A stretch of DNA of 64,000 nucleotides from Eledone cirrhosa (lineage: Eukaryota): assembly GCA_964016885.1 (NCBI GenBank), contig OZ024759.1, positions 16,554,001-16,618,000 on the forward strand. Direction: 5' to 3'. Under the pieces are notes generated by a model. It ran no database searches and had not been told where the DNA came from. It worked only from the letters and a program-made list of their open reading frames with translations. Made by a program: the position numbers and the translations under genes. This document shows positions 36,001 to 39,000 of the stretch, in pieces. Every line of letters starts with the position of its first letter. Within the stretch, counting starts at the first letter, position 1.

Positions 36001-39000
36001 CCAATGTTAAGGTATTGTTCTCAAAATAAATAGCATCAAAATCTCGTAGCTTTGATTTTATGTGAGATAATTATGGGAGATAAAGCTTTTGCCACAAAAA
36101 TATAGTAAATATAGAGCAATGTGAATGCTAAAGGGTTAAGTGGATCGTATATTTTTACACAGTCGCCCATATAGATGGCTGAGTATCCTCCATTTACTGT
36201 TGCCTCTTCAATAAGTTTGGATATAATCATTATGAATTTTATGTCCAGATCTCCATGTTGGTATGGGTTGGACTGGTTGTATTGGGACAATGTTTTACAG
36301 CTGGATGCCTTTCCTGATGCCAACCCTTCCTGTTGCCTCTTATGACATGCTGGGATATGGTGTACTTTTTCTAAAAACCTGAATACACAGGCATGCATAT
36401 ATATATATATGTGTGTGTGTGTGTTTGTATATATATATATATATCTATATATATATATATATACATATATAATGTACATATATGTATGTGTGTGTTATAT
36501 ATAATGTATATATATGTGTGTGTGTGTGTGTGTGTATATATACATTATATAATGTATATGTATGTATGTATGTGTGTGTGTGTGTATATATATATATATA
36601 TATATATATATATATATATACACATACACACACACATGTATATAAACTTTCTTAGGTGTCAGTCAGTATTACCTTTTAAAAACTTTTCACTAGGGCAGGC
36701 ATTTCCTCTTTTACTAATAAAGTGTTGTTTGATTGTGTCTTTATTTTCCTAGGTGATCAACACAATGGTAAGTTGTCTCTCTCTAGCCCACATTTTCTCT
36801 TCCTCCTCAGATTCCTTGTCAGCTATGAGACTGTGAACAACTTTCTGCTATCATATATAATAGGTCTGGCACTTTGCTATCTGGAAACTGGGTGAAGCAG
36901 GGTGAAACTGGGAAACAGGGCATATAACTTTAAAGTTGGCTTATGGATAGAAAACTTACACAAAAGTACTTTTCATACAAATTTATATATATATATATAT
37001 TTTTTTATTTTATAGAAGGAGCTTCTACAGGACTAGTACTGTTTCATCTGAATGAAACAGTACTAGTCCTGTAGAAGCTCCTTCTATAAAATAAAAAAAA
37101 TTTTACTCTGCCATGTATTGAGTACCTTACTTACTGTGGTTATCCCTGACTCAACCCGGGACCTATGTATATATATATATATATATAATGTACATGTGTG
37201 TGTGTGTGTGTATATATATATATATATATATATACACACACACACACAATCATATGTGTATATACATATGTCATCATCTTTTAATATCCGTTTCCCCTGC
37301 TAACAAGATATATCTATGTGTGTATGTATATGTATGTGTGTATATATGTATGTAAACATATTTATATATATATATATATATATATATATATATATATATA
37401 TATATATATATATGTGTGTGTGTATAACAAGATTAACAGTTCAGTTCAATGTATGATATATATATATACATATATATATATACATATATACATACATATA
37501 TATATATATATATATATATATATATATATATATATATATATATATATATATATATATATATATATATATATATATATATATATATATAGGTGGTGAATTG
37601 GCAGTCATTAGAACATCGGAAAGAATGGTATTCATTCCGGATTCCTGCTCCCTGAGTTCAAATCCTGCTGAGGTCAACTTTGCTTTTCATCCTTTCGAGG
37701 TTGATAACAAAAGTACCAGTCTAGTACTGGGGTTGATTCTTCCTCTCTCTCTGGAAGAAATCTGCTGTATTCAGGCCTGGAGAGGGATGGGCTCTACCAA
37801 GCTTAAAAAAGAATGCGCAAGAATTCCAATACAGCGCCCATGCGACTCCATCAGGTGTTACGGGACCATACATACATACATATCTATATGTATGTATGTG
37901 TATATGTATATATATATATATATATATATATGAAAAATTCGGGAGCCCGACGGCTGAGCTCCTGCCATTTCAACAGCTAGATCTGAACTAGCTGTTGAAA
38001 CAGGAGCTCAGCCGTCGGGGTCTTGAATTTTTCATATTACCCGCTCTACTACCCCAAGTATCAAGTACTCTGGGGAGTAATGGTCTAACTGGTTTTTACT
38101 GCTTCCATTTTTGTATATATATATATATATATATGCAAACTGAACTTTTCAAATGTGTATCTCCAGTGCATATGTGCCTTAATTCTTAACATCCTGTAAT
38201 TATATAATATTTTAAAACATGTTAATTCAAATGTTTATAGTATATTTACTAGTGGGCAGATCATTGTGAAAATCTGCTTCCATAGTGTTTTGTACTTTTA
38301 AAGCACATCTCACTCATGTGAATTCATTTGATACAGGATGTTAAGAGTTCACGCAAAATATTGACCTATTTGTTAGTCAAAATTTTGTGTCCAATATTCA
38401 TTTTCAAACCATTTCTAGGCTTCATGTAACTACCTTTTGCAGACAAATGACTATTTCAAATTTCTTTTTCATAAAATTTAAGAATTCCTCTGAGCTTGAA
38501 TTTTTGGGGTAGCAAATAGTACAGGCCGATATCAATTTTCTATTTCTTTTTTCTCTTCTCTCTCTGTTTTTTTTTCTATATTGTATTGTTGTTGTTGTTG
38601 TTGTTGCAGCTCACATCAATGTAGGGTAAGCTGGCCTCCTATGAAGTTACATCTTATAGGAGGTTTCTCAGGTGTTTTAATGTTAGATTTGATCAGGAAA
38701 CGACACTAGACTGTTACAAAAGTTAGACCTCCCCCCACTCCCCTCTGCTGTTAATACTAGAACTCAATACCCTAACCACTAGGCCACGTTCCTTCATTTG
38801 TATAGAATACATGAATATATATATATATGTATATATATACATACATATTCACACACACACACATATATATATAACCCTTGAAAAGGCTTGCTGAACACAC
38901 AAGCCAAAACCACTTGGCACCGCAGTTGGGATTTTACATATCTCCCTCTCTCTCTTTCTCTCTCTCTCTCTACACACACATATATAATATGGAAATTACT

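What the first reader, a model, noticed from the sequence alone, without database searches (positions are those of the whole stretch)
36700..36773. Candidate 15-nt in-frame microexon (VINTM) hidden in the giant UBR4 intron
Seen: mid-intron, in sequence matching no repeat family I recognised in the window, there is a branch-point-like TACTAAT ~38 nt upstream, a pyrimidine tract and acceptor (tctttattttcctag), 15 nt GTGATCAACACAATG and a consensus donor ATG|GTAAGT. The host intron is phase 0, so inclusion inserts VINTM between KKLTLT and RLASAP, which are contiguous in human UBR4 as I recall it. Established: frame-preserving 3-27-nt microexons are typically neural and often sit in long introns. 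Inference: a lineage-specific, possibly neural, switch in the propeller region just downstream of the UBR box.
Basis: partly seen in the sequence, partly recalled or inferred. Interest (0 to 1): 0.75.

Follow-up and report, generated by a model that had tools for sequence, protein, structure and literature searches.

The report
Optional five-residue exon in octopus UBR4
An octopus gene for the giant protein-disposal enzyme UBR4 holds a 15-letter exon in the middle of a 19,000-letter intron; its counterpart is in database gene models of two other octopus species (optional in one), so it is likely a real optional exon that would add five amino acids to an otherwise unbroken part of the enzyme, probably mainly in nerve cells.

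Summary
Confirmed. The 15-nt exon (36753-36767, VINTM) lies mid-way in a 19,439-nt phase-0 intron of an octopod UBR4 gene. Its branch point, acceptor and donor together score beyond chance (0 of 300 shuffles).

Decisive evidence: 5 of 9 listed Octopus sinensis RefSeq isoforms read KKLTLT-VINMM-RLASAP and 4 skip it. The single O. bimaculoides model also has VINMM. No non-octopod protein among 358 examined has an insert there. The one spliced contig available for this organism shows the skipped form, so inclusion here is inferred from orthologues.

AlphaFold places the site at the start of an outer strand of the beta-propeller. The fold survives, but the loop loses confidence.

Neural inclusion is untested. 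For it: eMIC-type exons exist in this genome and the branch point is strong. Against it: the UGC enhancer is absent.

Verdict: a real, probably octopod-restricted cassette microexon, already implicit in automated annotation and not found in the papers searched. The scan had not noted it on other DNA.

The parts
26864..27115 (+). Upstream UBR4 exon (84 codons, ends ...KKKLTLT; phase-0 donor ACA|GTAAGT)
   Evidence: tblastn and spliced map; spliced contig of run X1 covers it and jumps to 46555
27116..36752 (+). Upstream half of the host intron (9,637 nt), rich in simple and dispersed repeats
36686..36971 (+). Stretch without repeat hits that holds the microexon and its flanks
   Evidence: single hit in the genome for 36640-36900
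36712..36718 (+). Branch-point motif TACTAAT (predicted branch A at 36717)
   Evidence: sequence; TACTAAY occurs at 0 of 31 constitutive acceptors of the window; use as branch point inferred
36738..36752 (+). Pyrimidine tract and TAG acceptor; no UGC in the 150 nt upstream of the exon
   Evidence: score 10.8, above 17 of 31 constitutive acceptors
36753..36767 (+). 15-nt phase 0-0 cassette microexon encoding VINTM (VINMM in Octopus sinensis and O. bimaculoides models)
36768..36773 (+). Donor ATG|GTAAGT
   Evidence: score 11.1, above 31 of 31 constitutive donors scored leave-one-out
36776..36784 (+). CU repeat just downstream of the donor; possible PTB-type repressor site (role inferred from recalled motif)
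   Evidence: motif scan
36768..46554 (+). Downstream half of the host intron (9,787 nt)
46555..46644 (+). Downstream UBR4 exon (starts RLASAP)
   Evidence: loose end of the X1 contig matches its first 30 nt

Best explanation
The 15 nt at 36753-36767 are likely a cassette microexon of the octopod UBR4 gene, skipped in the one spliced contig seen for this organism and probably included mainly in neurons, where it would insert VINTM between T and R of the conserved KLTLT-RLASAP segment of the beta-propeller. Shown: the sequence and its splice signals; the skipped mRNA in this organism; the orthologous peptide in models of two Octopus species, present in some and absent in other O. sinensis isoforms. 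Predicted: the insert lengthens the loop before the outer strand of one propeller blade and shortens that strand, while the propeller still folds. Inferred: the strong branch point and very strong donor let the exon be defined when an activator (most likely the Srrm234 eMIC isoform, whose exons are in this genome) is present, and the longer loop tunes what the propeller contacts inside the UBR4-KCMF1-calmodulin ring rather than switching the ligase off. My odds: real alternative exon in octopods 0.95; still included in this species 0.85; neural-enriched 0.6; eMIC-driven 0.4; measurable effect on partners or substrates 0.35.
For: O. sinensis RefSeq isoforms X2, X4, X5, X8, X9 include VINMM and X7, X10, X11, X12 skip it (5 of 9 listed; 15 of 20 cluster members were listed). 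The O. bimaculoides model XP_052831626.1 has KKLTLT-VINMM. The window's protein is 97.3% identical to O. sinensis, 96.1% to Argonauta, and falls in the octopod clade (100/99) outside Octopus, so the exon has persisted across an inter-genus split inside an intron that is 69% repeat. Splice scores are beyond chance. AlphaFold2 on O. sinensis isoforms: strand 111-117 begins at the junction without the insert; with it, pTM is 0.87 against 0.89 and residues 103-118 fall below pLDDT 50; the model matches the human UBR4 propeller at TM 0.92. An SRRM_C exon over the Pfam cut-off, ending RRITS and followed about 21 kb downstream by an exon starting ARKRPVPY, is in this genome (the eMIC motif itself is recalled). 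Alternative splicing is highest in neural tissues of O. vulgaris (PMC9699675, passage). Deleting the human propeller leaves partial function on an orphan substrate (PMC7617804, passage), which fits a modulating role.
Against: No read or contig of this species shows inclusion: the X1 contig joins 27115 to 46555 directly (contigs drop minor variants and the tissue is not on record). No tissue-labelled data were reachable. No UGC in 150 nt upstream and a short AG-exclusion zone (28 nt; 25 of 31 constitutive acceptors have longer ones), both unlike the fly eMIC-exon code (PMC8797185 passage). 0 of 6 O. vulgaris models, 0 of 1 Argonauta model and 0 of 4 decapod-like Logan proteins include it. Codon 4 differs at two bases (ACA against the ATG that Met requires), so the peptide is not strictly conserved. 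RefSeq XP_ models are automated and I did not see their read support. Low pLDDT at the insert is expected anyway, because none of the 60 other alignment rows carries it.
Confidence: 0.58

Rival explanations
1. Real exon, but a low-level, unregulated or non-neural variant: the spliceosome picks it up occasionally, or in another tissue or stage, and the five residues are tolerated in a surface loop without a function.
For: Skipped form in X1; absent from all 6 O. vulgaris models; no UGC; two base changes in one codon; O. sinensis UBR4 has several other short optional segments, one of which was not found in this window.
Against: Splice signals as strong as or stronger than constitutive ones have been kept across an inter-genus split; present in models of two separately annotated species.
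Confidence: 0.22
2. Attenuator exon: inclusion breaks the register of the outer strand in a nearly invariant segment, destabilises the propeller or its packing on the scaffold, and so lowers UBR4 activity without a frameshift.
For: Residues around the junction are 87-99% conserved in 128 non-redundant homologues (K107 0.99, L108 0.97, T109 0.99, L110 0.96, T111 0.87, R112 0.93, L113 0.97); the model with the insert loses the first residues of the strand.
Against: The fold is kept (pTM 0.87; TM 0.92 to human); the 15-residue window ranks only about 85th of 422 for conservation; the added residues are beta-prone and could slide into the strand (inference).
Confidence: 0.1
3. Decayed in this species: the exon is used in Octopus but is no longer spliced here.
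For: No inclusion evidence in this organism; T instead of M at codon 4.
Against: Frame, branch point, acceptor and donor are intact and top-scoring.
Confidence: 0.05
4. Recursive-splicing (ratchet) exon: the AG|GT at 36751-36754 splits the 19.4-kb intron into two halves, and inclusion is a by-product when the downstream donor wins.
For: The exon starts with GT and sits almost exactly mid-intron (9,637 and 9,787 nt); the mechanism is described for RS-exons (PMC6224609, listing and start of abstract only).
Against: The regenerated donor scores -0.9, below all 31 real donors (lowest 3.7) and far below the exon's own donor (11.1); 5 of 31 ordinary exons here also start with GT.
Confidence: 0.05

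Closest known systems
Octopus sinensis UBR4 RefSeq isoforms X2/X4/X5/X8/X9 (XP_036368078.1, XP_036368080.1, XP_036368081.1, XP_036368084.1, XP_036368085.1) and O. bimaculoides XP_052831626.1
   Same: Five-residue insert at the identical junction, 4 of 5 residues identical; optional in O. sinensis.
   Different: VINMM there, VINTM here. They are automated models; no description of the exon was found in the papers searched.
Bilaterian neural microexons regulated by SRRM3/4 or the Srrm234 eMIC domain (PMC8797185, passages; bioRxiv 10.1101/2024.09.17.613571, abstract and section 10)
   Same: 3-27 nt, frame-preserving, strong CUAAY branch point, strong donor as in mammalian targets, host gene with neural roles, eMIC-type exons present in the genome.
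   Different: No UGC between branch point and AG (present in 74-79% of SRRM3/4-dependent human microexons, though not strictly required); short AG-exclusion zone; acceptor not weak; neural inclusion and eMIC dependence untested.
Human UBR4 beta-propeller (E1849-N2245) in the UBR4-KCMF1-calmodulin (SIFI) complex (PDB 9D9Z, 9HXW; PMC7617804, PMC12286842, PMC7618180, passages)
   Same: Same fold (TM 0.92, 69% identity); the site corresponds to T1943|R1944.
   Different: The human chains aligned have no insert, nor does any vertebrate or arthropod homologue examined.

Membership tests
Alternative (cassette) microexon | Exon of 3-27 nt bounded by AG and GT | tested here: met
   15 nt, TAG|...|GTAAGT
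Alternative (cassette) microexon | Keeps the frame, no stop, same phase at both ends | tested here: met
   phase-0 intron, VINTM
Alternative (cassette) microexon | Both included and skipped transcripts exist | tested here: inconclusive
   Both forms in O. sinensis models (5 and 4 of 9); only the skipped form seen in this organism
Alternative (cassette) microexon | Conserved in related species | tested here: met
   VINMM in two Octopus species at protein level; flanking intron DNA of relatives was not available
Neural eMIC/SRRM3/4-dependent microexon | Neural-biased inclusion | not testable with these tools
   No tissue-labelled raw reads offered
Neural eMIC/SRRM3/4-dependent microexon | UGC motif between branch point and AG | tested here: not met
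   None in 150 nt upstream; typical but not strictly required
Neural eMIC/SRRM3/4-dependent microexon | Strong CUAAY branch point | tested here: met
   TACTAAT; CTAAY at 4 of 31 and TACTAAY at 0 of 31 constitutive acceptors
Neural eMIC/SRRM3/4-dependent microexon | Long AG-exclusion zone and weak acceptor (fly code) | tested here: not met
   28 nt, shorter than 25 of 31; acceptor above the median
Neural eMIC/SRRM3/4-dependent microexon | Regulator encoded in the genome | tested here: met
   SRRM_C hit over cut-off on C22 plus downstream ARKRPVPY exon; expression not tested
Neural eMIC/SRRM3/4-dependent microexon | Inclusion depends on eMIC/SRRM4 | not testable with these tools
   needs minigene or knockdown
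Recursive-splicing exon | Acceptor followed at once by a usable donor | tested here: not met
   AG|GT present but regenerated donor scores -0.9, below 31 of 31 real donors
UBR4/p600 host gene | Orthology: UBR box followed by propeller and beta-sandwich, colinear exons | tested here: met

The most novel reading that the evidence does not exclude
An octopod-born, neuron-specific microexon remodels a nearly invariant propeller segment of UBR4 that no other animal examined has interrupted, giving octopus neurons a private form of the UBR4-KCMF1 stress-silencing ligase with altered substrate or partner choice, and switched without the usual UGC enhancer.
Probability: 0.2. Interest if true: 0.65.

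Novelty: new member of a known kind. Interest (0 to 1): 0.36.

Why it matters
The function of the UBR4 propeller is open: its deletion leaves partial activity and substrate sites are still being mapped. A natural five-residue insertion in a segment that is unbroken in over 300 homologous sequences is a ready-made probe of that surface. If it proves neural, it is also a defined, datable example of a cephalopod neural microexon, a class for which the searched literature gave almost nothing. Against high interest: microexons are a well-known class, automated annotation already contains the orthologue, and no function is shown.

Tried and rejected
The look-up of sequencing runs: no RNA holder listed; X1 proved to be spliced only when laid. 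X1 has no contig on 36630-36990, which is uninformative for a 15-nt exon. A degenerate exon-plus-splice-site pattern found 0 matches in JGI metagenome contigs, as expected for a collection with little cephalopod DNA. The loose branch-point/AG/GTAAGT pattern is not significant alone. The residues after VINMM in the O. bimaculoides model match nothing convincing in the window and that model lacks the RLASAP exon, so I treat them as model filler. Recursive splicing was considered and scored low. The fly orthologue was not found under poe, UBR4 or CG14472 (names recalled) in the supplement zip of PMC8797185. The 2019 eMIC paper is not held. Paper searches: microexon+UBR4 (9 papers, 7 listed; one read in passages, on human ARM-repeat isoforms), microexon+octopus (4, 3 listed), microexons+cephalopod (1), eMIC+microexons+mollusc (0), UBR4+octopus (2); none of the listings or passages seen describes this exon. 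No complex prediction was run, since no partner is claimed.

Full report
OBSERVATION. The motif is present as described. TACTAAT lies at 36712-36718, a pyrimidine tract and TAG at 36738-36752, the 15-nt GTGATCAACACAATG at 36753-36767 and GTAAGT at 36768-36773. A spliced map against an Octopus UBR4 isoform gave 33 junction rows, of which 31 were well supported and 2 were dropped for low identity. The host intron is 27116-46554, phase 0, 19,439 nt, against a median of 1,059 nt and a next-longest of 1,974 nt. The exon splits it into 9,637 and 9,787 nt. Contigs of three runs from one sample span 36630-36990 with no substitution; they may be the assembly's own source, so they check the letters only.

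CHANCE. A loose consensus pattern matches once where 1.8 are expected, so the bare motifs prove nothing. With matrices trained on the 31 introns, the donor (11.1) beats all 31 real donors and the acceptor (10.8) beats 17 of 31. The candidate is the only 3-51-nt candidate in 51,600 intron bases within 2 bits of these scores. In 300 local shuffles of the host intron, 0 reach its scores and 2 come within 2 bits; 144,000 bases of antisense control give none at either threshold. The thresholds come from the candidate, so this shows rarity and is not a formal P value. The exon lies in a 286-nt stretch without repeat hits, while 69% of the intron has hits, and 36640-36900 has one hit in the genome.

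IT IS AN EXON IN RELATIVES. Of 9 listed O. sinensis RefSeq isoforms, X2, X4, X5, X8 and X9 read KKLTLT-VINMM-RLASAP, and X7, X10, X11 and X12 read KKLTLT-RLASAP (15 of the cluster's 20 members were listed). The single O. bimaculoides model also has KKLTLT-VINMM, then unrelated residues where the RLASAP exon is missing. All 6 O. vulgaris models (one identical to O. sinensis X10), the one Argonauta model and the 4 decapod-like Logan proteins that cover the site skip it. Over all 358 proteins fetched, 312 read straight through by pattern and 5 carry VINMM. Of 12 others, 1 is the O. bimaculoides VINMM, 4 are contiguous variants, 6 run from LTLT into V-initiated intron-like sequence and 1 diverges; 29 do not cover the site or were unreadable. 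These are automated models; that such models rest on RNA-seq junctions is my recalled knowledge, not something I saw. The six unnamed read-through ORFs suggest that the host intron position is shared with other animals and is older than the exon (inference).

AGE. The window's exons translate without stops to a protein 97.3% identical to O. sinensis, 96.1% to Argonauta and 88.5% to the decapod-like Logan proteins over 853 residues. On a tree it falls in the octopod clade (100/99), with weak support (86/86) for a place outside Argonauta plus Octopus. So this is a third species, and the exon predates its split from Octopus. Absence from single models of Argonauta or decapods does not show absence from their genomes. 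Codon 4 is ACA here and must be ATG in Octopus, two changes, so length and general character look better kept than exact sequence.

THIS ORGANISM'S RNA. No run was on record as RNA. Run X1 holds a 14,140-nt spliced contig that covers 26863-27115 and continues directly with the first 30 nt of exon 46555. The skipped form therefore exists and dominated that library, whose tissue is not on record. Contigs drop minor variants, so this does not show absence of inclusion.

PROTEIN CONTEXT. The junction is human T1943|R1944, inside the beta-propeller E1849-N2245 (PMC7617804, passages). AlphaFold2 of the O. sinensis propeller without the insert (pLDDT 87.4, pTM 0.89) shows strands 67-70, 79-83 and 88-93, a short helix 95-100, a loop 101-110 and a strand 111-117 (TRLASAP) that begins at the junction. 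With VINMM (pLDDT 83.1, pTM 0.87) the strand shrinks to ASAP and 103-118 fall below pLDDT 50. The model still matches human UBR4 at TM 0.92. The alignment had no other row with the insert, so low local confidence is partly built in. The flanking residues are 87-99% conserved in 128 non-redundant homologues, though the 15-residue window ranks only about 85th of 422. In the human complex the propeller sits inside the ring beside the DOC1-UBR-KCMF1 module, supported by a scaffold helix (PMC12286842, passages; PMC7618180, one passage). Its deletion leaves partial function on CCT4. I could not see which partner, if any, this loop faces.

REGULATION. For a neural eMIC-type exon: the size class, the TACTAAT branch point (0 of 31 constitutive acceptors have TACTAAY), a very strong donor and a downstream CU repeat. 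An SRRM_C exon over the Pfam cut-off with a downstream ARKRPVPY exon is in this genome (motif recalled). Neural microexons are reported to date from the bilaterian ancestor (PMC8797185, passages), and alternative splicing is highest in neural tissues of O. vulgaris (PMC9699675, passages). Against: no UGC in 150 nt upstream, a 28-nt AG-exclusion zone and an acceptor that is not weak, unlike the fly code. UGC is present in 74-79% of human SRRM3/4 targets and is not strictly required (bioRxiv 10.1101/2024.09.17.613571, abstract and section 10 read). I put neural enrichment at 0.6 and eMIC dependence at 0.4.

RIVALS. Unregulated or non-neural inclusion (0.22), an attenuating insert (0.10), decay in this species (0.05) and recursive splicing (0.05; the regenerated donor scores -0.9).

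LITERATURE AND NOVELTY. Five searches pairing microexon, UBR4, octopus, cephalopod or mollusc terms gave no description of this exon in the listings or passages seen. The main text of bioRxiv 10.64898/2026.09.05.749416, which includes O. bimaculoides, has no occurrence of UBR4 (passages); its supplements could not be seen and may list the exon with tissue values. PMC13721120 was read in passages and added nothing on the loop. Earlier notes of this scan show no look-alike on other DNA but list many other microexons in this genome (unchecked), which lowers the surprise. Verdict: a real cassette microexon, a new member of a known kind, already implicit in automated annotation of relatives. Interest 0.36.

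Noticed in passing
P0332 and other O. sinensis isoforms; window intron 19143-20592: A 12-residue optional segment (PEEDEQYQLPLQ) just before the UBR box is in 6 of 9 O. sinensis isoforms and its end is in the O. bimaculoides model, but nothing with 6 or more of 12 identical residues was found on the + strand of the window. It may be younger than the 15-nt exon or diverged.
   Followed up: partly
O. sinensis isoforms, X2 positions about 3777, 4679, 5161 (beyond the window): Further short optional segments of 22, 6 (YDSVSR) and 6 (ICFEFQ) residues; the 22-residue one is also in O. vulgaris and Argonauta models. Octopus UBR4 seems to carry several small alternative segments.
   Followed up: no
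P0338 (unnamed Logan protein, decapod-like), near X2 position 1313: An 11-residue insert (FGIMISGIKLE) absent from three sister sequences, a possible separate optional exon in decapods.
   Followed up: no
window 36889: A 20-nt insertion in contigs of X2 and X4 but not X3 of the same sample, about 120 nt downstream of the microexon; looks like a heterozygous indel in a short repeat.
   Followed up: no
window 61403-61487: This constitutive exon starts with GTGAGT, so joining to the upstream exon regenerates a donor scoring 7.9, within the range of real donors: a possible recursive-splicing exon whose skipping would shift the frame.
   Followed up: no
window 58792-58818: A weaker 27-nt in-frame candidate (acceptor 6.9, donor 11.2, no CTAAY) 75 nt after the donor at 58717; not in any octopus isoform aligned.
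   Followed up: no
G000:C22:28167743-28167880 (-) and L005 near 8755 (-): Two exons that look like the C-terminal eMIC part of Srrm234, about 21 kb apart.
   Followed up: partly
window 28477-29471, 32617-33438, 33822-34275: Minisatellite arrays of 114, 29 and 28 nt periods with 92-96% matches inside the host intron, which account for part of its length.
   Followed up: no
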